A stretch of DNA of 64,000 nt from Escherichia coli (GCF_003018115.1 NZ_CP027457.1), one strand, 5' to 3'; shown: positions 9,719-50,174, counted from the first letter of the stretch. The notes: generated from the letters alone by a model not told the origin. Made by a program: numbers and translations.

Positions 9719-10938
9719 AAATACTGGTCTACGGCATTAACTACTCGCCGGAGTTAACCGGTATCGGCAAATACACCGGCGAGATGGTGGAATGGCTGGC
9801 GGCACAAGGTCATGAGGTGCGGGTTATTACCGCACCGCCTTACTACCCGCAGTGGCAGGTGGGTGAGAACTATTCCGCCTGGCGCTACAAACGAGAAGAG
9901 GGGGCCGCCACGGTGTGGCGCTGCCCGCTGTATGTGCCAAAACAGCCGAGCACCCTGAAACGCCTGTTGCATCTCGGCAGTTTTGCCGTCAGCAGTTTCT
10001 TTCCACTGATGGCGCAACGTCGCTGGAAGCCGGATCGCATTATCGGCGTAGTGCCAACGCTGTTTTGCACGCCGGGAATGCGCCTGCTGGCGAAGCTCTC
10101 TGGTGCGCGTACCGTGCTGCATATTCAGGATTACGAAGTGGACGCCATGCTGGGGCTGGGCCTTGCCGGAAAAGGCAAAGGCGGCAAAGTGGCACAGCTG
10201 GCAACGGCGTTCGAACGTAGCGGACTGCATAACGTCGATAACGTTTCCACGATTTCGCGTTCGATGATGAATAAAGCCATCGAAAAAGGCGTGGCGGCGG
10301 ATAACGTCATCTTCTTCCCCAACTGGTCGGAAATTGCCCGTTTTCAACATGTTGCAGACGCCGATGTTGATGCCCTTCGTAACCAGCTTGGCCTGCCGGA
10401 TAACAAAAAAATCATTCTTTACTCCGGCAATATTGGTGAAAAGCAGGGGCTGGAAAACGTTATTGAAGCTGCCGATCGTCTGCGCGATGAACCGCTGATT
10501 TTTGCCATTGTCGGGCAGGGCGGCGGCAAAGCGCGGCTGGAAAAAATGGCGCAGCAGCGTGGACTGCGCAACATGCAATTTTTCCCGCTGCAATCGTATG
10601 ACGCTTTACCCGCACTGCTGAAGATGGGCGATTGCCATCTGGTGGTGCAAAAACGCGGCGCGGCAGATGCCGTATTGCCGTCGAAACTGACCAATATTCT
10701 GGCGGTAGGCGGTAACGCGGTGATTACCGCAGAGGCCCACACAGAACTGGGGCAGCTTTGCGAAACCTTTCCGGGCATTGCGGTTTGCGTAGAACCGGAA
10801 TCGGTCGAGGCGCTGGTGGCGGGGATCCGTCAGGCGCTCCTGCTGCCCAAACACAACACGGTGGCACGTGAATATGCCGAACGCACACTCGATAAAGAGA
10901 ACGTGTTACGTCAATTTATAAATGATATTCGGGGATAA
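9715..10938 (+). CDS. wcaI: Colanic acid glycosyltransferase (GT4)
   Basis: 407 aa ORF; conserved position. Confidence 0.85.
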
Positions 10939-10940
10939 TT

Positions 10941-12377
10941 ATGGCGCAGTCGAAACTCTATCCAGTTGTGATGGCAGGTGGCTCCGGTAGCCGCTTATGG
11001 CCGCTTTCCCGCGTACTTTACCCCAAGCAGTTTTTATGCCTGAAAGGCGATCTCACCATGCTGCAAACCACCATCTGCCGCCTGAACGGCGTGGAGTGCG
11101 AAAGCCCGGTGGTGATTTGCAATGAGCAGCACCGCTTTATTGTCGCGGAACAGCTGCGTCAACTGAACAAACTCACCGAGAACATTATTCTCGAACCGGC
11201 AGGGCGTAACACTGCACCTGCCATTGCACTGGCGGCGCTGGCGGCAAAACGTCATAGCCCGGAGAGCGACCCGTTAATGCTGGTATTGGCGGCGGATCAT
11301 GTGATTGCCGATGAAGACGCGTTCCGTGCCGCCGTGCGTAATGCCATGCCATATGCCGAAGCGGGCAAGCTGGTGACCTTCGGCATTGTGCCGGATCTAC
11401 CAGAAACCGGTTATGGCTATATTCGTCGCGGTGAAGTGTCTGCGGGTGAGCAGGATACGGTGGCCTTTGAAGTGGCGCAGTTTGTCGAAAAACCGAATCT
11501 GGAAACCGCCCAGGCCTATGTGGCAAGCGGCGAATATTACTGGAACAGCGGTATGTTCCTGTTCCGCGCCGGACGCTATCTCGAAGAACTGAAAAAATAT
11601 CGCCCGGATATTCTCGATGCCTGTGAAAAAGCGATGAGCGCCGTCGATCCGGATCTTGATTTTATTCGTGTGGATGAAGAAGCGTTTCTCGCCTGCCCGG
11701 AAGAGTCGGTGGATTACGCGGTCATGGAACGTACGGCAGATGCTGTTGTGGTGCCGATGGATGCGGGCTGGAGCGATGTTGGTTCCTGGTCTTCATTATG
11801 GGAGATCAGCGCCCACACCGCCGAGGGCAACGTTTGCCACGGCGATGTGATTAATCACAAAACTGAAAACAGCTATGTGTACGCCGAATCTGGCCTGGTC
11901 ACCACCGTCGGGGTGAAAGATCTGGTAGTGGTGCAGACCAAAGATGCGGTGCTGATTGCCGACCGTAACGCGGTGCAGGATGTGAAAAAAGTGGTCGAGC
12001 AGATCAAAGCCGATGGTCGCCATGAGCATCGGGTGCATCGCGAAGTGTATCGTCCGTGGGGCAAATATGACTCTATCGACGCGGGCGACCGCTACCAGGT
12101 GAAACGCATCACCGTGAAACCGGGCGAGGGCTTGTCGGTACAGATGCACCATCACCGCGCGGAACACTGGGTAGTGGTCGCGGGAACGGCAAAAGTCACC
12201 ATTGATGGTGATATCAAACTGCTTGGTGAAAACGAGTCCATTTATATTCCGCTGGGGGCGACGCACTGCCTGGAAAATCCGGGGAAAATTCCGCTCGATT
12301 TAATTGAAGTGCGCTCCGGCTCTTATCTCGAAGAGGATGATGTGGTGCGCTTCGCGGATCGCTACGGACGGGTGTAA
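10941..12377 (+). CDS. cpsB: Mannose-1-phosphate guanylyltransferase
   Basis: 478 aa; N-terminal nucleotidyltransferase motif [16 protein letters not shown]. Confidence 0.95.
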
Positions 12378-15390: not shown

Positions 15391-16869
15391 ATGAGCTTAC
15401 GTGAAAAAACCATCAGCGGCGCGAAGTGGTCGGCGATTGCCACGGTGATCATCATCGGCCTCGGGCTGGTGCAGATGACCGTGCTGGCGCGGATTATCGA
15501 CAACCACCAGTTCGGCCTGCTGACTGTGTCGCTGGTGATTATCGCGCTGGCAGATACGCTTTCTGACTTCGGTATCGCTAACTCGATTATTCAGCGAAAA
15601 GAAATCAGTCACCTTGAACTCACCACGTTGTACTGGCTGAACGTCGGGCTGGGGATCGTGGTGTGCGTGGCGGTGTTTTTGTTGAGTGATCTCATCGGCG
15701 ACGTGCTGAATAACCCGGACCTGGCACCGTTGATTAAAACATTGTCGCTGGCGTTTGTGGTGATCCCCCACGGGCAACAGTTCCGCGCGTTGATGCAGAA
15801 GGAGCTGGAGTTCAACAAAATCGGCATGATCGAAACCAGCGCGGTGCTGGCGGGCTTCACTTTTACGGTGGTTAGCGCCCATTTCTGGCCGCTGGCGATG
15901 ACCGCGATCCTCGGTTATCTGGTCAATAGTGCGGTAAGAACGCTGCTGTTTGGCTACTTTGGTCGAAAAATTTATCGCCCCGGTCTGCATTTCTCGCTGG
16001 CGTCAGTTGCGCCGAACTTACGCTTTGGTGCCTGGCTGACGGCGGACAGCATCATCAACTATCTCAACACCAACCTTTCAACGCTGGTGCTGGCGCGTAT
16101 TCTTGGCGCGGGCGTGGCAGGGGGATACAACCTGGCGTACAACGTGGCCGTCGTACCGCCGATGAAGCTGAACCCAATCATCACCCGCGTGTTATTTCCG
16201 GCATTCGCCAAAATTCAGGACGACACCGAAAAGTTGCGCGTGAACTTCTACAAGCTGCTGTCGGTGGTGGGGATTATCAACTTTCCGGCGCTGCTCGGGC
16301 TGATGGTGGTGTCGAATAACTTTGTACCGCTGGTCTTTGGTGAGAAGTGGAACAGCATTATTCCGGTGCTGCAATTGCTGTGTATTGTGGGTCTGCTGCG
16401 CTCCGTGGGTAACCCGATTGGTTCGCTGCTGATGGCGAAAGCGCGGGTCGATATCAGCTTTAAATTCAACGTATTCAAAACATTTCTGTTTATTCCGGCG
16501 ATTGTTATTGGTGGGCAGATGGCGGGCGCAATCGGCGTCACGCTCGGTTTCCTGCTGGTGCAGATTATCAACACCATTCTGAGTTACTTCGTGATGATTA
16601 AACCGGTACTCGGTTCCAGTTATCGCCAGTACATCCTGAGTTTGTGGCTGCCGTTTTATCTCTCGCTGCCGACGCTGGTGGTCAGTTATGCGCTGGGCAT
16701 TGTGCTGAAAGGGCAACTGGCGCTGGGGATGCTGCTGGCGGTGCAAATAGCCGCGGGCGTGCTGGCGTTTGTGGTGATGATTGTGCTGTCGCGCCATCCG
16801 CTGATGGTGGAAGTGAAGCGTCAGTTTTGTCGCAGCGAAAAAATGAAAATGCTTTTACGGGCGGGGTGA
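15391..16869 (+). CDS. wzxC: Colanic acid repeat-unit flippase
   Basis: 492 aa polytopic membrane protein; conserved position. Confidence 0.9.
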   Translation: MSLREKTISGAKWSAIATVIIIGLGLVQMTVLARIIDNHQFGLLTVSLVIIALADTLSDFGIANSIIQRKEISHLELTTLYWLNVGLGIVVCVAVFLLSDLIGDVLNNPDLAPLIKTLSLAFVVIPHGQQFRALMQKELEFNKIGMIETSAVLAGFTFTVVSAHFWPLAMTAILGYLVNSAVRTLLFGYFGRKIYRPGLHFSLASVAPNLRFGAWLTADSIINYLNTNLSTLVLARILGAGVAGGYNLAYNVAVVPPMKLNPIITRVLFPAFAKIQDDTEKLRVNFYKLLSVVGIINFPALLGLMVVSNNFVPLVFGEKWNSIIPVLQLLCIVGLLRSVGNPIGSLLMAKARVDISFKFNVFKTFLFIPAIVIGGQMAGAIGVTLGFLLVQIINTILSYFVMIKPVLGSSYRQYILSLWLPFYLSLPTLVVSYALGIVLKGQLALGMLLAVQIAAGVLAFVVMIVLSRHPLMVEVKRQFCRSEKMKMLLRAG

Positions 16870-16907
16870 GTTGCTGTTTTCGGTTCCGACAACGGTTGCC
16901 GGGTGCA

Positions 16908-16990
16908 GCGTAAAACGCCTTATCCATCCTACGGTTCTGTGCTCGGGACCTGTAGGCCTGATAAGACGCGCCAGCGTCGCATCAGGCAAA
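16908..16990. repeat. REP/BIME palindromic repeats between wzxC and wcaK
   Basis: cgccttatccatcctacggttctg ... gcgtcgcatcaggc, near-identical to the repeats at 12378..12485. Confidence 0.65.
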
Positions 16991-17048
16991 AAGCGGCAAC
17001 GAACACAACAAACACAGCCTCACCTGGCATCAAATTTATGAGGAAAAA

Positions 17049-18329
17049 ATGAAATTACTTATTCTGGGCAACCACACTTGCGGCAATCGTGGCGACAGTG
17101 CCATCTTGCGCGGCTTACTTGATGCCATCAACATCCTCAATCCACAAGCCGAAGTGGACGTGATGAGCCGCTATCCGGTCAGTTCTTCCTGGCTGCTCAA
17201 CCGCCCGGTAATGGGCGATCCGCTGTTCCTGCAAATGAAACAACACAACAGCGCGGCGGGCGTTGTCGGGCGCGTTAAAAAAGTCCTCCGTCGCCGCTAT
17301 CAACACCAGGTATTGCTCTCACGCGTCACCGACACTGGCAAGCTGCGTAATATCGCCATCGCCCAGGGATTCACCGACTTCGTGCGCATGCTCTCAGGTT
17401 ACGACGCCATTATTCAGGTCGGAGGATCGTTTTTTGTCGATCTCTACGGCGTGCCGCAGTTTGAACATGCGCTTTGCACGTTTATGGCGAAAAAGCCGCT
17501 GTTTATGATTGGTCACAGCGTCGGCCCCTTCCAGGATGAGCAATTTAACCAACTGGCGAACTACGTTTTTGGTCACTGTGACGCGCTGATCCTGCGCGAA
17601 TCGGTCAGCCTTGATTTGATGAAACGCAGCAATATCACCACTGCAAAAGTTGAACATGGCGTCGATACCGCGTGGCTGGTCGATCACCACACAGAAGATT
17701 TCACCGCCAGCTATGCCGTCCAACACTGGCTGGACGTTGCCGCACAACAGAAAACGGTGGCAATTACCCTGCGCGAACTGGCACCGTTTGACAAACGCCT
17801 CGGCACCACTCAACAAGCGTATGAAAAAGCCTTTGCCGGGGTGGTCAATCGCATTCTCGACGGAGGCTATCAGGTCATTGCGCTCTCCACCTGTACGGGC
17901 ATCGACAGCTATAACAAAGACGACCGCATGGTAGCGCTCAATCTGCGCCAGCACATCAGCGATCCTGCCCGTTACCACGTAGTGATGGATGAACTCAACG
18001 ATCTGGAAATGGGCAAAATTCTCGGGGCCTGTGAACTCACCGTCGGTACGCGCCTGCACTCCGCCATTATCTCGATGAATTTTGCCACTCCGGCAATTGC
18101 CATCAACTACGAACATAAATCCGCCGGGATCATGCAACAACTGGGGCTGCCAGAGATGGCGATTGATATCCGTCATTTACTGGACGGCAGCTTGCAAGCG
18201 ATGGTTGCGGATACCTTAGGCCAGCTTCCGGCGCTGAACGCACGACTTAACGAAGCCGTCAGTCGCGAACGTCAGACAGGAATGCAGATGGTGCAGTCTG
18301 TGCTTGAGCGCATCGGGGAGGCGAAATGA
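17049..18329 (+). CDS. wcaK: Colanic acid pyruvyl transferase
   Basis: 426 aa ORF; conserved position. Confidence 0.85.
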   Translation: MKLLILGNHTCGNRGDSAILRGLLDAINILNPQAEVDVMSRYPVSSSWLLNRPVMGDPLFLQMKQHNSAAGVVGRVKKVLRRRYQHQVLLSRVTDTGKLRNIAIAQGFTDFVRMLSGYDAIIQVGGSFFVDLYGVPQFEHALCTFMAKKPLFMIGHSVGPFQDEQFNQLANYVFGHCDALILRESVSLDLMKRSNITTAKVEHGVDTAWLVDHHTEDFTASYAVQHWLDVAAQQKTVAITLRELAPFDKRLGTTQQAYEKAFAGVVNRILDGGYQVIALSTCTGIDSYNKDDRMVALNLRQHISDPARYHVVMDELNDLEMGKILGACELTVGTRLHSAIISMNFATPAIAINYEHKSAGIMQQLGLPEMAIDIRHLLDGSLQAMVADTLGQLPALNARLNEAVSRERQTGMQMVQSVLERIGEAK

Positions 18330-19546
18330 AGGTCGGCTTCTTTTTACTGAAATTTCCGCTGTCGTCGGAAACTTTCGTCCTCAACCAAATTACCGCGTTT
18401 ATTGATATGGGATTTGAGGTGGAGATTGTCGCGCTGCAAAAAGGCGATACAGAGAACACCCACGCGGCATGGACGAAATACAACCTTGCCGCCAGAACCC
18501 GCTGGTTACAGGACGAACCAACGGGCAAAGTGGCGAAGCTGCGCCACCGCGCCAGCCAGACGTTACGCGGCATTCATCGTAAAAATACCTGGCAGGCGCT
18601 CAACCTCAAACGCTATGGTGCCGAGTCGCGGAACCTGATTTTGTCTGCCATTTGCGGTCAGGTCGCAACACCATTTCATGCCGATGTGTTCATCGCTCAT
18701 TTTGGCCCGGCGGGGGTAACCGCAGCAAAACTACGGGAACTGGGGGTCATTCGCGGCAAAATTGCCACTATCTTCCACGGTATTGATATCTCCAGTCGGG
18801 AAGTGCTCAACCACTACACTCCCGAATATCAGCAACTGTTCCGCCGTGGCGACCTGATGCTACCGATAAGTGATTTGTGGGCCGGAAGGCTGCAAAAAAT
18901 GGGCTGCCCGAGGGAAAAAATTGCCGTATCGCGCATGGGCGTGGACATGACGCGCTTTAGCCCGCGTCCGGTGAAAGCGCCCGCAACGCCGCTGGAAATC
19001 ATATCCGTCGCACGCTTAACCGAGAAAAAAGGTCTGCATGTAGCGATTGAAGCCTGCCGTCAGTTGAAAGAGCAGGGCGTGGCATTTCGCTATCGCATCC
19101 TCGGCATTGGCCCGTGGGAACGACGCCTGCGTACCCTCATCGAACAATATCAACTGGAAGATGTGGTAGATATGCCGGGCTTTAAACCGAGCCACGAAGT
19201 GAAAGCGATGCTCGACGACGCGGATGTCTTCCTGTTGCCATCGGTAACGGGCGCGGATGGCGATATGGAAGGCATTCCGGTGGCGCTAATGGAAGCGATG
19301 GCGGTCGGCATTCCGGTGGTTTCTACTCTGCATAGCGGAATACCGGAACTGGTGGAGGCCGATAAATCCGGCTGGCTGGTGCCTGAGAACGATGCTCGCG
19401 CACTGGCGCAACGACTGGCGGCGTTTAGCCAACTGGACACCGACGAACTGGCTCCGGTCGTCAAACGTGCTCGCGAAAAAGTCGAACACGATTTTAACCA
19501 GCAGGTGATTAATCGGGAACTCGCCAGCTTGTTACAGGCTTTATAG
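18326..19546 (+). CDS. wcaL: Colanic acid glycosyltransferase (GT4)
   Basis: 406 aa; GT4-type C-terminal motif. Confidence 0.85.
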
Positions 19547-19556
19547 AGGAGAACGC

Positions 19557-20951
19557 ATGCCATTTAAAAAACTCTCCCGACGCACCTTCCTGACGGCAAG
19601 CTCGGCGCTTGCCTTCCTCCATACCCCTTTCGCTCGCGCACTTCCCGCCCGACAAAGCGTTAACATTAACAACTACAACCCTCACGACTGGATCGCCTCA
19701 TTTAAACAAGCCTTCAGCGAAGGGCAAACGGTCGTCGTGCCTGCTGGATTGGTTTGTGACAATATCAACACCGGCATCTTCATTCCTGCAGGTAAAACGT
19801 TACACATCCTTGGAAGCCTGCGCGGCAACGGCAGAGGGCGATTTGTCTTACAGGACGGCAGCCAGGTGACAGGGGGGGAGGGCGGCAGTATGCATAACAT
19901 CACCCTGGATGTGCGCGGGTCTGACTGCACCATTAAAGGGCTGGCGATGAGCGGCTTTGGCCCGGTAACGCAGATTTATATCGGCGGCAAAAACAAACGG
20001 GTCATGCGTAACCTGACCATCGATAACCTGAACGTTAGCCACGCTAATTACGCCATCTTACGCCAGGGATTTCATAACCAGATTATCGGTGCCAACATCA
20101 CCAATTGTAAGTTCAGTGATTTACAGGGGGACGCCATCGAATGGAACGTGGCAATTAACGACAGTAATATTTTGATTTCCGACCATGTCATTGAGCGCAT
20201 CAACTGTACTAACGGAAAAATCAACTGGGGCATCGGCATAGGCCTTGCGGGGAGTACTTATGATAATAACTACCCGGAAGACCAGGCAGTGAAAAACTTT
20301 GTCGTGGCGAATATCACGGGATCGGATTGTCGGCAGTTGATACATGTTGAAAATGGTAAACATTTTGTTATTCGTAATATCAAAGCCCGCAATATCACAC
20401 CGGATTTCAGTAAGAAAGCAGGTATTGATAACGCCACGGTCGCTATTTACGGTTGTGACAATTTCGTGATTGATAATATTGAAATGATTAATAGCGCCGG
20501 GATGTTAATCGGCTATGGGGTAATTAAAGGCAAATATCTCTCGATACCGCAAAATTTCCGAGTGAATAATATTCAACTGGATAATACCCACCTTGCTTAC
20601 AAATTGCGCGGTATCCAAATCTCCGCCGGCAATGCCGTCTCCTTTGTGGCACTGACTAACATTGAGATGAAGCGTGCCTCGCTTGAGCTACACAATAAAC
20701 CGCAACACCTTTTTATGCGAAATATCAAGGTGATGCAGGAATCCTCAGTTGGACCCGCATTGAGCATGAACTTCGACATGCGCAAAGACGTTCGAGGCGT
20801 CTTTATGGCGAAAAAAGAAACACTGCTGTCACTTGCAAATGTTCATGCGGTGAATGAAAAAGGACAAAGCTCCGTCGATATCGACAGGATAAATCACCAT
20901 ATTGTTAATGTGGAAAAGATTAACTTTAGATTGCCGGAACGGAGGGAGTAG
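19557..20951 (+). CDS. wcaM: Colanic acid biosynthesis protein WcaM, Tat-type signal peptide
   Basis: 464 aa; N-terminus [28 protein letters not shown] carries an S-R-R-x-F-L twin-arginine motif. Confidence 0.85.
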
Positions 20952-22019: not shown

Positions 22020-22277
22020 TGAAAATCTGACCGGATGTAACGGTTGATAAGAAAATTATAACGGCAGTGAAGATTCGTGGCGAAAGTAATATGTTGCGAA
22101 TATTCCTGCCGTTGTTTTATATAAACAATCAGAATAACAACGAGTTAGCAATAGGATTTTAGTCAAAGTTTTCCAGGATTTTCCTTGTTTCCTGAGCGGA
22201 TTGGTAAGACAATTAGCGTTTGAATTTTTCGAGTTAAGCGCGAGTGGGTAACGCTCGTCACATCGTAGGCATGCATG

Positions 22278-22315
22278 CAGTGCTCTGGTAGCTGTAAAGC
22301 CAGGGGCGGTAGCGT
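22278..22315 (+). promoter_or_regulatory. JUMPstart element containing the ops site GGCGGTAG (22305..22312), RfaH antitermination signal
   Basis: cagtgctctggtagctgtaaagccaggggcggtagcgt read directly, upstream of the first O-antigen gene. Confidence 0.85.
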
Positions 22316-22352
22316 ATTTGCTTATTTTTATCGTGTAATCAAAGTGATTGTT

Positions 22353-22724
22353 ATGAATAAGATAATAGTTGATCTTGACGGTACTTTAACTGAGGAAGAT
22401 ACAAATGATTATACTAAAGTTAAACCAAAACTAAAAGTTGTTAAAAAATTGTATGAATTTAAAAAAATGGGATTCAGTATTGTAATAATGACAGCAAGGA
22501 ATATGCGAACATTTGATGGTAATATTGGAAAGATTAATATACATACACTTCCTGTAATCATTGACTGGCTTAATGAAAATAATATCCCGTACGATGAAGT
22601 TATTGTGGGGAAGCCATGGTGCGGTAATAAGGGATTTTATGTTGATGATCGGGCACTAAGGCCTTCTGAATTTGCAAGATTAAATCTTCAAGAGATAAAC
22701 GAATTATTTGATAAGGATAAATAA
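22353..22724 (+). CDS. HAD-superfamily phosphatase (small, subfamily IIIC-like)
   Basis: ORF 22275..22724 trimmed to MNKIIVDLDGTLT, the HAD motif I DxDGT; longer upstream start rejected because it would run through the ops element; AT-rich. Confidence 0.6.
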   Translation: MNKIIVDLDGTLTEEDTNDYTKVKPKLKVVKKLYEFKKMGFSIVIMTARNMRTFDGNIGKINIHTLPVIIDWLNENNIPYDEVIVGKPWCGNKGFYVDDRALRPSEFARLNLQEINELFDKDK

Positions 22725-49966: not shown

Positions 49967-50174
49967 TAGGTTAAATCCGTTATTTCTACTGTCTGCCAGA
50001 GTATCAAATATCACCGTGCTAATCAGCTTTAGCGCCACAATTTGGCAGCGAGTGGCAACAGATCATGTCAGATAAAAATGAGAGGGTAGTCACATTTTCT
50101 TGCACTTTATTCCAGCCAGTTCATAAGTATTTCCGTAAAAAGAACAGCTATTTGAAACTCCTGAGGGTTTGCTG

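What the first reader, a model, noticed from the sequence alone, without database searches (positions are those of the whole stretch)
19557..19646. Twin-arginine signal peptide on WcaM
The N-terminus [18 protein letters not shown]...ARA has the S-R-R-x-F-L Tat motif, a hydrophobic core and an AxA cleavage site, suggesting WcaM is exported folded to the periplasm, possibly as a beta-helix polysaccharide-processing protein. Its role in colanic-acid biosynthesis is poorly defined.
Basis: partly seen in the sequence, partly recalled or inferred. Interest (0 to 1): 0.3.

Follow-up and report, generated by a model that had tools for sequence, protein, structure and literature searches.

The report
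Known Tat signal on WcaM
The last gene of the E. coli colanic-acid slime operon does start with a genuine twin-arginine export signal, which is already on record, but the exported protein looks like the enzyme phages use to cut colanic acid, which gives this poorly understood gene a testable function.

Summary
Window 19557-19646 encodes [30 protein letters not shown], the start of a 464-aa ORF (19557-20951, +) that is E. coli WcaM, the last gene of the colanic-acid operon. It has a canonical S-R-R-T-F-L motif, a weakly hydrophobic core, a basic c-region and an A-R-A cleavage site. The motif and the -1 and -3 positions are close to invariant in 74 distinct homologue N-termini and recur in relatives of 23-41% identity. 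The AlphaFold2 model leaves exactly residues 1-28 unstructured.

The finding is already known. WcaM appears in published E. coli and Salmonella Tat-substrate lists, and a TatP run in PMC7549933 reports this identical 28-residue peptide.

What I add concerns the mature domain, residues about 32-464. It is a right-handed beta-helix homologous to phage colanic-acid-degrading tailspikes:
- PHROG 6117 "colanic acid degradation": E 1e-52.

The residues conserved across the family are present in WcaM. Phage relatives carry a 100-260-aa tail-attachment domain where bacterial relatives carry the Tat signal.

WcaM is therefore most likely a Tat-exported periplasmic colanic-acid glycanase, analogous to Pantoea WceF. 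Enzyme activity and Tat dependence were not tested here.

The parts
19546..19551 (+). Shine-Dalgarno GAGGAG, 5 nt upstream of the wcaM ATG. It overlaps the last base of the wcaL stop codon (19544-19546), which indicates translational coupling within the cps operon.
   Evidence: read directly from the sequence; no separate promoter or terminator above chance
19557..19640 (+). Predicted Tat signal peptide, residues 1-28: [28 protein letters not shown]
   Evidence: identical peptide listed as the TatP prediction in PMC7549933; pLDDT below 50 for exactly residues 1-28
19575..19592 (+). Twin-arginine motif S7-R8-R9-T10-F11-L12
   Evidence: R8 and R9 are invariant in 74/74 distinct homologue N-termini. 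An RR motif is present in distant homologues P0121, P0123, P0132, P0138, P0140, P0142, P0175, P0181, P0182, P0183 and P0222.
19584..19622 (+). h-region, about T10-H22 ([13 protein letters not shown]). It is weakly hydrophobic: peak 10-residue Kyte-Doolittle value 1.73.
19623..19640 (+). c-region T23-A28, with the signal-peptidase I site A26-R27-A28 followed by L29. Arg at -2 is a feature associated with Sec avoidance.
   Evidence: A28 in 73/74, small residue at -3, R27 in 56/74
19641..20948 (+). Mature WcaM, residues 29-464: a single right-handed parallel beta-helix domain (structured from residue 32). The stop codon is at 20949-20951.
20043..20603 (+). Most conserved core, residues 163-349. 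It is shared with the phage Phi92 gp150 colanidase and holds the family-wide conserved residues D192, E195, N197, W224, G225, R259, Q260, H263, E265 and Y298, which are candidate active-site residues.
   Evidence: phmmer E 6.3e-25; BLASTP 33% identity, E 4e-27; conservation in both bacterial and phage-type members

Best explanation
Codons 1-28 of wcaM encode a cleavable twin-arginine (Tat) signal peptide. The proposed pathway is below; only the identity of the mature domain is shown by my analyses, and every other step is inferred.

1. WcaM is translated as the last, translationally coupled gene of the Rcs-controlled colanic-acid (cps) operon.
2. Its roughly 430-residue beta-helix folds in the cytoplasm.
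3. TatBC recognises S-R-R-T-F-L and the folded protein crosses the inner membrane through the Tat translocase.
4. Signal peptidase I cuts after A26-R27-A28, releasing mature WcaM (from L29) into the periplasm.

The mature domain is a homologue of the colanic-acid-degrading tailspikes of coliphages. The phage tail-attachment domain is replaced by the Tat signal, and the phage C-terminal domain is missing.

The most likely job is therefore a periplasmic, or later released, endoglycanase acting on colanic acid. It would trim chain length or clear polymer that is mislocalised in the periplasm while Wzy (WcaD) and Wza-Wzc assemble and export it. On this reading WcaM is not a biosynthetic transferase.

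Use of Tat rather than Sec is explained (by inference) by the fold. This fold normally forms in the cytoplasm of phage-infected cells and is slow-folding and possibly oligomeric, as in the Tat-signal-bearing trimer WceF of Pantoea.
For: **Signal anatomy and statistics.**

**Purifying selection on the signal.**
- The RR, F, L/I/V and -1/-3 positions are held in 74 distinct close N-termini.
- Eleven distant homologues at 23-70% identity carry an RR motif.

**Literature.**
- TatP predicted the identical peptide (PMC7549933).
- WcaM appears in E. coli and Salmonella Tat-substrate tables (PMC3027627, PMC8262268, PMC9604234).

**Structure.** The AF2 model has pLDDT 93.6. Residues 1-28 are disordered and the fold starts at residue 32.

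**Homology to colanidase.**
- The only PDB sequence hit is Phi92 gp150, E 6.3e-25.
- BLASTP gives 33% identity over 200 aligned positions.
- Foldseek gives E 4e-16 and TM 0.78, against at most 0.56 for all other hits listed.
- The top BFVD hits are colanidase tailspikes, TM 0.74-0.79.
- PHROG 6117 "colanic acid degradation" scores E 1e-52.
- 252 phage records match by tblastn.
- The gp150 record note reads "colanidase tailspike".
- The phage NST1 colanidase is a characterised hydrolase (PMC9143390, PMC4179555).

**Candidate active site retained.** D192, E195, H263 and E265 are conserved in both bacterial and phage members.

**Domain swap.** Long members have 100-260 extra N-terminal residues with phage tail-fibre domains. 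Short members have a Tat signal instead.

**Genomic context.**
- Five of five distant Tat-bearing homologues examined sit beside polysaccharide-synthesis genes.

**Precedent.** WceF has a 28-residue Tat signal and a tailspike-like beta-helix, is encoded in the stewartan cluster and cleaves stewartan. Its knockout lengthens chains (PMC7949094).
Against: - No experiment in the papers I could read shows Tat-dependent localisation of native WcaM. The published lists rest on prediction or on reporter fusions. Tullman-Ercek et al. 2007 (J Biol Chem), which I recall tested this leader, is not in the library.
- The Pfam TAT_signal score is below its cutoff, and the NCBIfam Tat model gave no hit.
- The consensus Lys after F-L is Thr in WcaM.
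- No enzymatic activity has been shown for WcaM.
- Identity to gp150 is only about 22% over the whole helix.
- WcaM lacks the tailspike C-terminal domain, so it may not trimerise and its activity or specificity may differ.
- Salmonella delta-wcaM strains are used as "colanic-acid-deficient" and do show phenotypes (PMC8171120). A pure trimming enzyme would not obviously give that, although the alginate lyase AlgL shows that a periplasmic degrading enzyme can be needed for production.
- An E. coli delta-wcaM strain had no virulence defect (PMC7549933), which is uninformative about function.
Confidence: 0.8

Rival explanations
1. The peptide is a Sec-type or dual Sec/Tat signal. WcaM would then be exported unfolded through SecYEG, and the RR pair would simply be part of a positively charged n-region.
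For: - The Pfam TAT_signal score is below its gathering cutoff.
- The consensus Lys at motif position 7 is absent.
- The window contains another signal with an RR pair that looks Sec-type (ORF at 50169), so RR alone is not diagnostic.
- A few distant family members do use Sec or lipoprotein-type signals (P0190, P0195, P0205, P0224), so the fold can apparently be exported by Sec.
- From memory, many E. coli Tat leaders are promiscuous when fused to Sec-compatible reporters.
Against: - Peak hydropathy is 1.73, below the whole range of the 12 Sec controls (1.92-3.08) and at the Tat mean.
- Length is 28 residues, against 22 +/- 2 for the Sec controls.
- Arg at -2 and Arg at +4 give a net +2 charge around the cleavage site. 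By established knowledge this disfavours Sec.
- The whole S/T-R-R-x-F-[LIV] motif, not merely positive charge, is invariant across 74 N-termini and recurs at 23-41% identity.
- TatP calls it Tat (PMC7549933).
Confidence: 0.1
2. The signal is real, but mature WcaM is not a hydrolase. It could be a non-catalytic colanic-acid-binding or scaffold protein, or a different beta-helix enzyme such as a lyase or epimerase, and it could be genuinely required for polymer assembly or export.
For: - WcaM lacks the C-terminal domain of gp150 and shares only about 22% identity over the whole helix.
- Colanic acid contains glucuronic acid, which is a possible lyase substrate.
- Delta-wcaM is treated as colanic-acid-deficient in Salmonella work.
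Against: - The residues conserved across the family (D192, E195, N197, H263, E265) are retained in WcaM and are the same in phage and bacterial members. That argues for a shared catalytic site rather than a decayed one.
- The closest relatives by a wide margin are colanidases.
- The characterised phage enzyme NST1 is reported to act as a hydrolase that releases repeat-unit oligomers (PMC9143390).
Confidence: 0.2
3. The N-terminus is an uncleaved signal anchor that tethers WcaM to the inner membrane, or the true start codon lies downstream and WcaM is cytoplasmic.
For: Nothing specific supports this. Cleavage has not been shown experimentally in any paper I could read.
Against: - The hydrophobic stretch is only about 13 residues and weakly hydrophobic, which is too short and too polar for a stable transmembrane helix.
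- A canonical A-x-A site is conserved.
- There is no in-frame Met between residue 1 and about residue 112.
- A strong Shine-Dalgarno sequence precedes 19557.
- The N-terminal peptide is conserved as protein in all homologues.
Confidence: 0.03

Closest known systems
E. coli and Salmonella Tat signal peptides of cofactor-less envelope enzymes (SufI/FtsP, AmiA, AmiC, MepK/YcbK, MdoD)
   Same: - S/T-R-R-x-F-L motif, weakly hydrophobic h-region, A-x-A site.
- Length about 27-34 residues.
- The passenger protein has no evident redox cofactor.
- WcaM is listed alongside these proteins in published Tat-substrate tables.
- Its Pfam TAT_signal score is similar to those of SufI and AmiA.
   Different: - WcaM has Thr instead of Lys after F-L.
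- In the literature I could read, its Tat dependence rests on prediction only. No localisation experiment on the native protein was found.
Phage colanidase tailspikes (Phi92 gp150, PDB 6E0V/6E0W; PHROG 6117; NST1 colanic acid hydrolase)
   Same: - The same conserved motifs: NYGILRQG, GDAIEWN, NWGIGIG.AG and RQ.IHVE.
- The same polysaccharide is the expected substrate.
   Different: - WcaM has no N-terminal virion-attachment domain; a Tat signal takes its place.
- WcaM has no C-terminal domain: it is 464 aa, against 804 aa for gp150.
- It is chromosomal, encoded in the host's own colanic-acid operon.
- Its activity and oligomeric state are untested.
Pantoea stewartii WceF (with its Erwinia and Pantoea homologues): a Tat-signal-bearing, tailspike-like EPS glycanase encoded in the stewartan cluster
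   Same: - 28-residue Tat signal.
- Parallel beta-helix with a tailspike-like fold.
- Encoded inside a Wzy-dependent acidic EPS cluster.
- For WceF, the knockout lengthens EPS chains and the enzyme cleaves its own EPS (PMC7949094). This is the model for how WcaM probably works.
   Different: - WceF is 736 aa and trimeric, with extra domains.
- It is an analogue, not a family member.
Periplasmic glycanases or lyases encoded in exopolysaccharide operons (AlgL for alginate, BcsZ for cellulose, PslG, PelA, RbmB)
   Different: - Most of these have different folds or families.
- To my knowledge they are generally exported by Sec, not Tat.
- None has a recognisable phage-tailspike sequence relative.

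Membership tests
Twin-arginine (Tat) signal peptide | S/T-R-R-x-F-L-K consensus at the boundary of the n- and h-regions, with two consecutive Arg | tested here: met
   S7-R8-R9-T10-F11-L12 matches 6 of 7 consensus positions; Thr replaces Lys. RR is invariant in homologues.
Twin-arginine (Tat) signal peptide | h-region less hydrophobic, and whole peptide longer, than Sec signals | tested here: met
   Peak 10-residue hydropathy is 1.73, against 1.86 +/- 0.28 for Tat and 2.56 +/- 0.31 for Sec. Length is 28, against 32.8 for Tat and 22.0 for Sec.
Twin-arginine (Tat) signal peptide | c-region with an A-x-A signal-peptidase I site, often with a basic residue | tested here: met
   A26-R27-A28 followed by L29. 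A28 is present in 73/74 and R27 in 56/74 distinct N-termini.
Twin-arginine (Tat) signal peptide | Match to the curated profile (Pfam PF10518 or TIGR01409) above its cutoff | tested here: inconclusive
   WcaM scores 12.7 bits on the whole protein and 17.1 on the isolated N-terminus, against a cutoff of 22.7. There was no NCBIfam Tat hit. Seven of nine other peptides from the published E. coli Tat list also fail, including TorA, SufI, AmiA and AmiC.
Twin-arginine (Tat) signal peptide | Export depends on TatABC and on the RR pair in vivo | not testable with these tools
   Only predictions and substrate lists could be read. The reporter-fusion study I recall (Tullman-Ercek 2007) is not held in the library.
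WcaM family (NCBIfam NF007517 / TIGR04004; Pfam PF27800) | Full-length match above the curated equivalog cutoff, and position as the last gene of the colanic-acid cluster | tested here: met
   1019.6 bits against 808, and 968 bits against 794.6. The gene order is wcaL, wcaM, galF. Homologues carry PF27800 "WcaM".
Phage colanidase tailspike (PHROG 6117; Phi92 gp150) | Homologous beta-helix catalytic domain with the family's conserved residues | tested here: met
   D192, E195, H263 and E265 are conserved in both bacterial and phage-type members.
Phage colanidase tailspike (PHROG 6117; Phi92 gp150) | N-terminal virion-attachment domain and C-terminal domain; structural component of a phage tail | tested here: not met
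   The WcaM match covers PHROG profile positions 194-559 of 711. WcaM is 464 aa, gp150 is 804 aa. There are no phage genes around it. WcaM is a homologue of the catalytic domain, not a tailspike.
Phage colanidase tailspike (PHROG 6117; Phi92 gp150) | Depolymerises colanic acid | not testable with these tools
   This needs an enzyme assay with purified mature WcaM.
WceF-type EPS-cluster glycanase with a tailspike fold | Tat signal, beta-helix, and location inside an EPS biosynthesis cluster | tested here: met
   The WceF features are described in PMC7949094.
WceF-type EPS-cluster glycanase with a tailspike fold | Sequence or close structural homology to WceF; native trimer | tested here: not met
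   [not shown]

The most novel reading that the evidence does not exclude
WcaM may not be a "biosynthesis protein" at all. It may be a domesticated phage-type colanidase: the catalytic beta-helix of a colanic-acid-degrading tailspike, stripped of its tail-attachment and C-terminal domains, fitted with a Tat signal, and fixed as the last gene of the cps operon. From the periplasm it would set colanic-acid chain length, release or clearance.

The same architecture (Tat signal plus a PF27800 helix beside polysaccharide genes) recurs in distant bacteria. That suggests a widespread class of Tat-exported "self-depolymerases".

One corollary is that the delta-wcaM strains widely used as colanic-acid-null controls may make altered polymer rather than none.

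I found no paper in the searchable library that links WcaM to tailspikes or colanidase. The similarity is nevertheless visible in databases, for example in phage proteins annotated "WcaM".
Probability: 0.55. Interest if true: 0.55.

Novelty: already known. Interest (0 to 1): 0.3.

Why it matters
The Tat signal itself adds nothing new, because WcaM is a standard entry in E. coli and Salmonella Tat-substrate lists.

The useful result is what the signal is attached to. The passenger protein is a homologue of the enzyme phages use to drill through colanic acid. This turns "function poorly defined" into a concrete and inexpensive experiment: purify residues 29-464 and test them on colanic acid.

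If WcaM is a periplasmic colanidase, several things would follow:
- It would explain why a cofactor-less protein uses Tat: the fold evolved to form in the cytoplasm.
- It would add E. coli to the WceF paradigm of self-encoded EPS trimming.
- It would caution against using delta-wcaM as a colanic-acid-null strain.
- It would offer a host-derived enzyme for making low-molecular-weight colanic acid.

Tried and rejected
**Literature I could not reach or that gave nothing.**
- The reporter-fusion paper I remember for E. coli Tat leaders (PMID 17218314 / PMC2730154) and Craig et al. 2013 (PMC3811912) are not held. I therefore cite no experimental Tat dependence.
- Searches for WcaM with "beta-helix", "tailspike" or "hydrolase" found no paper linking WcaM to a glycanase. 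A plain "WcaM" search was mostly unrelated acronyms.

**Protein-family profiles.**
- The Pfam scan of the full protein gave only a sub-threshold TAT_signal hit, and the local Pfam copy lacks PF27800.
- I calibrated the profile on nine other E. coli Tat-list peptides and found it too insensitive to count for or against.

**Other readings rejected.**
- Lipoprotein or signal anchor: there is no Cys and the core is short and polar.
- Downstream start codon: rejected.

**Other checks.**
- The promoter and terminator scan around wcaM showed nothing above chance.
- The closest phage-type homologue, P0125, sits on contigs too short (2.3-2.5 kb) to show its context.
- WceF was considered as a family for WcaM and rejected as a homologue. 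It is an analogue only.

Full report
**1. The observation**

Window 19557-20951 (+) is a 464-aa ORF that starts at ATG. A GAGGAG ribosome-binding site lies 5 nt upstream, immediately after the stop codon of the preceding gene.

The protein is E. coli WcaM:
- NCBIfam NF007517 scores 1019.6 bits against a cutoff of 808, and TIGR04004 scores 968 bits.
- The DNA is 95-99% identical to the annotated wcaM of most complete E. coli genomes; 4641 of 5426 genomes hold it.

The surrounding genes are the colanic-acid (cps) operon, from wzc through wcaA-F, gmd, fcl, gmm, wcaI, cpsB, cpsG, wcaJ, wzxC, wcaK and wcaL to wcaM. galF and an O-antigen cluster follow.

**2. Is it a Tat signal, and is it more than chance?**

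The peptide has four characteristic parts:
- an n-region with a charge of +4;
- S7-R8-R9-T10-F11-L12, which matches 6 of the 7 positions of the S/T-R-R-x-F-L-K consensus;
- a 13-residue weakly hydrophobic core;
- a c-region ending in A26-R27-A28 before L29.

| Measure | WcaM | Tat set (n = 22) | Sec set (n = 12) |
|---|---|---|---|
| Length (residues) | 28 | 32.8 +/- 5.6 | 22.0 +/- 1.9 |
| Peak 10-residue hydropathy | 1.73 | 1.86 +/- 0.28 | 2.56 +/- 0.31 (minimum 1.92) |

WcaM also has a basic residue at -2, and Arg32 at +4 of the mature chain. By established knowledge, such positive charge near the cleavage site disfavours Sec.

On chance:
- The strict motif is expected about 1e-4 times per protein N-terminus.
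- It occurs in only one of 103 six-frame ORFs of at least 100 aa in the window.

Conservation is the strongest argument. In 116 close homologues (74 distinct N-termini), R8 and R9 are invariant, S/T7 is 74/74, F11 is 72/74, L/I/V12 is 74/74 and A28 is 73/74, while the positions between them drift. The motif also recurs in homologues of only 23-41% identity from unrelated contigs (SRRNFF, SRRHFV, TRRNFT, NRRQFG, SRRRLM, SRRKFI, HRRRVL and others).

The Pfam TAT_signal profile scores below its cutoff (12.7 or 17.1 bits against 22.7). I checked how informative that is: TorA, FhuD and YcbK get no hit at all, and SufI, AmiA, AmiC and MdoD are also below the cutoff. That result therefore carries no weight in either direction.

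**3. It is already known**

- PMC7549933 ran TatP on an E. coli genome and lists WcaM with this identical 28-residue peptide.
- PMC3027627 lists wcaM (b2043 / STM2099) as a predicted Tat substrate in both E. coli and Salmonella.
- PMC8262268 and PMC9604234 list it among the 30 Salmonella Tat substrates and treat it as one in an overproduction test.
- From memory, the leader was also tested with reporter fusions by Tullman-Ercek et al. 2007, and UniProt annotates a Tat-type signal. I could not retrieve either, so they remain leads.
- None of the papers I could read shows localisation of native WcaM in a tat mutant.

**4. What the signal is attached to**

*Sequence and fold.*
- A sequence search of all PDB chains returns a single hit, bacteriophage Phi92 gp150 (6E0V/6E0W), with E 6.3e-25.
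- The phage record annotates gp150 as "colanidase tailspike". PMC11126041 uses the same name for 6E0V.
- BLASTP against full-length gp150 gives 33% identity over 200 aligned positions, E 4e-27.
- WcaM matches PHROG 6117 "colanic acid degradation" at E 1e-52 over residues 86-460.
- It matches 252 phage genomes by tblastn, mostly coliphage genes annotated as colanidase or colanic-acid-degrading.
- An AlphaFold2 model built on a 67-sequence alignment is very confident (pLDDT 93.6, pTM 0.90). It is a single right-handed beta-helix from residue 32. Residues 1-28, exactly the predicted signal peptide, are the only low-confidence segment.
- Foldseek against the PDB puts 6E0V first (E 4e-16, TM 0.78, rmsd 3.1 A). 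Every other hit listed has TM 0.56 or less.
- The best viral predicted structures are colanidase tailspikes, with TM 0.74-0.79.

*Colanidase activity.* This activity is established for the phage enzyme NST1 (PMC9143390, PMC4179555).

*Conserved residues.* The family-wide conserved residues are D192, E195, N197, W224, G225, R259, Q260, H263, E265 and Y298. They are the same in the bacterial and the phage-type members and are all present in WcaM. The presumed active site is therefore intact.

**5. Domain architecture across the family**

An exhaustive search of 1.84 billion representative proteins found 188 relatives. They fall into two forms:
- **Proteins of 600-940 aa.** The WcaM mature domain, from about residue 31 onward, aligns to an internal segment. 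An N-terminal segment of 100-260 residues carries phage tail-fibre or tail-spike domains and no signal peptide.
- **Proteins of 400-500 aa.** The helix is preceded by only 25-40 residues, and these almost always contain an RR motif. A few have Sec or lipoprotein-type signals (P0190, P0195, P0205, P0224) and one has a KR variant (P0141).

The boundary of homology coincides with the predicted signal-peptidase site.

All five distant Tat-bearing homologues whose contigs I examined lie beside polysaccharide-synthesis genes. These include glycosyltransferases, a WcaD-type polymerase, GDP-fucose genes, a WcaJ-type initiating transferase and a pyruvyl transferase.

**6. Mechanism**

*Shown here:*
- the anatomy of the signal and the selection acting on it;
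- the fold and homology of the passenger protein;
- the operon context.

*Inferred:*
- the helix folds in the cytoplasm;
- TatBC recognises the SRRTFL motif and the folded protein is translocated;
- LepB cleaves after ARA;
- the mature enzyme acts on colanic acid in the periplasm, or after release.

Its role would be trimming chains or clearing stalled polymer during Wzy/Wzc/Wza-dependent assembly.

The closest worked example is Pantoea stewartii WceF. It has a 28-residue Tat signal and a trimeric tailspike-like beta-helix, and it is encoded in the stewartan cluster. It cleaves stewartan, and its knockout gives longer chains (PMC7949094). WceF is an analogue and not a detectable homologue.

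The passenger has no evident cofactor, so Tat is most plausibly used for one of two reasons: this phage-type fold forms, and perhaps oligomerises, in the cytoplasm, or it folds too slowly for Sec. This is inference.

**7. Rivals**

- **Sec or dual Sec/Tat signal (about 0.1).** Hydropathy, charge, motif conservation and TatP all argue against it.
- **Non-hydrolytic role for the mature domain (about 0.2).** This stays open because no activity has been measured, WcaM lacks the tailspike C-terminal domain, and Salmonella delta-wcaM strains are used as colanic-acid-deficient and show phenotypes.
- **Membrane anchor or downstream start codon.** This is very unlikely.

**8. Verdict**

The finding is real, correctly interpreted and already known, so its own interest is low. 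The added value is a specific, testable function for WcaM: a Tat-exported homologue of the phage colanidase catalytic domain. I did not find this stated in the searchable literature. It is implicit in database annotations, because some phage tailspikes are labelled "WcaM".

Noticed in passing
window 50169 (+), 390-aa ORF: The N-terminus MLLKRRLIIAASLFVFNLSSGFA|AENIPF has an RR pair but otherwise looks like a short, strongly hydrophobic Sec-type signal. It shows that RR alone is not diagnostic. I did not check the identity of the protein.
   Followed up: no
phage records H22 (PP777464.1), H27 (MW822008.1); BFVD A0A0S1S1H9 (Klebsiella phage vB_KpnM_KB57): Several phage tailspike genes are annotated "colanic acid biosynthesis protein (WcaM)". 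The bacterial name has been transferred onto what are almost certainly colanic-acid-degrading tailspikes. Annotation pipelines therefore already detect the homology, but label it in the opposite sense.
   Followed up: partly
protein P0064, 761 aa: One database protein joins a WcaM segment (96% identity over 81% of the query) to PF13727 and PF02397 domains, which belong to a WcaJ-type initiating transferase. It is probably an assembly or gene-calling artefact rather than a real fusion.
   Followed up: no
L003 (NCBI assembly GCA_000737915.1), gene at 10001-11344: A 41%-identical WcaM homologue with an SRRNFF Tat motif sits next to a colanic-acid-like cluster (WcaJ-type transferase, gmd, fcl, NUDIX, WcaD-type polymerase, pyruvyl transferase). 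It is on the opposite strand, between that cluster and a 6-phosphogluconate dehydrogenase (gnd-type) gene, so it is not always the last gene of the operon.
   Followed up: partly
window 22275-31414 (+): Downstream of galF there is a run of ORFs, for example 149, 529, 251, 356, 460, 366, 248 and 351 aa. They occupy the position of an O-antigen cluster and differ from the O179-type cluster in the genome whose wcaM is most similar (L002). The cps and O-antigen regions therefore have different histories.
   Followed up: no
window 16869-17049: There is a 180-bp non-coding gap between the wzxC-like ORF and the wcaK-like ORF inside the otherwise tightly packed cps operon. I did not examine it.
   Followed up: no
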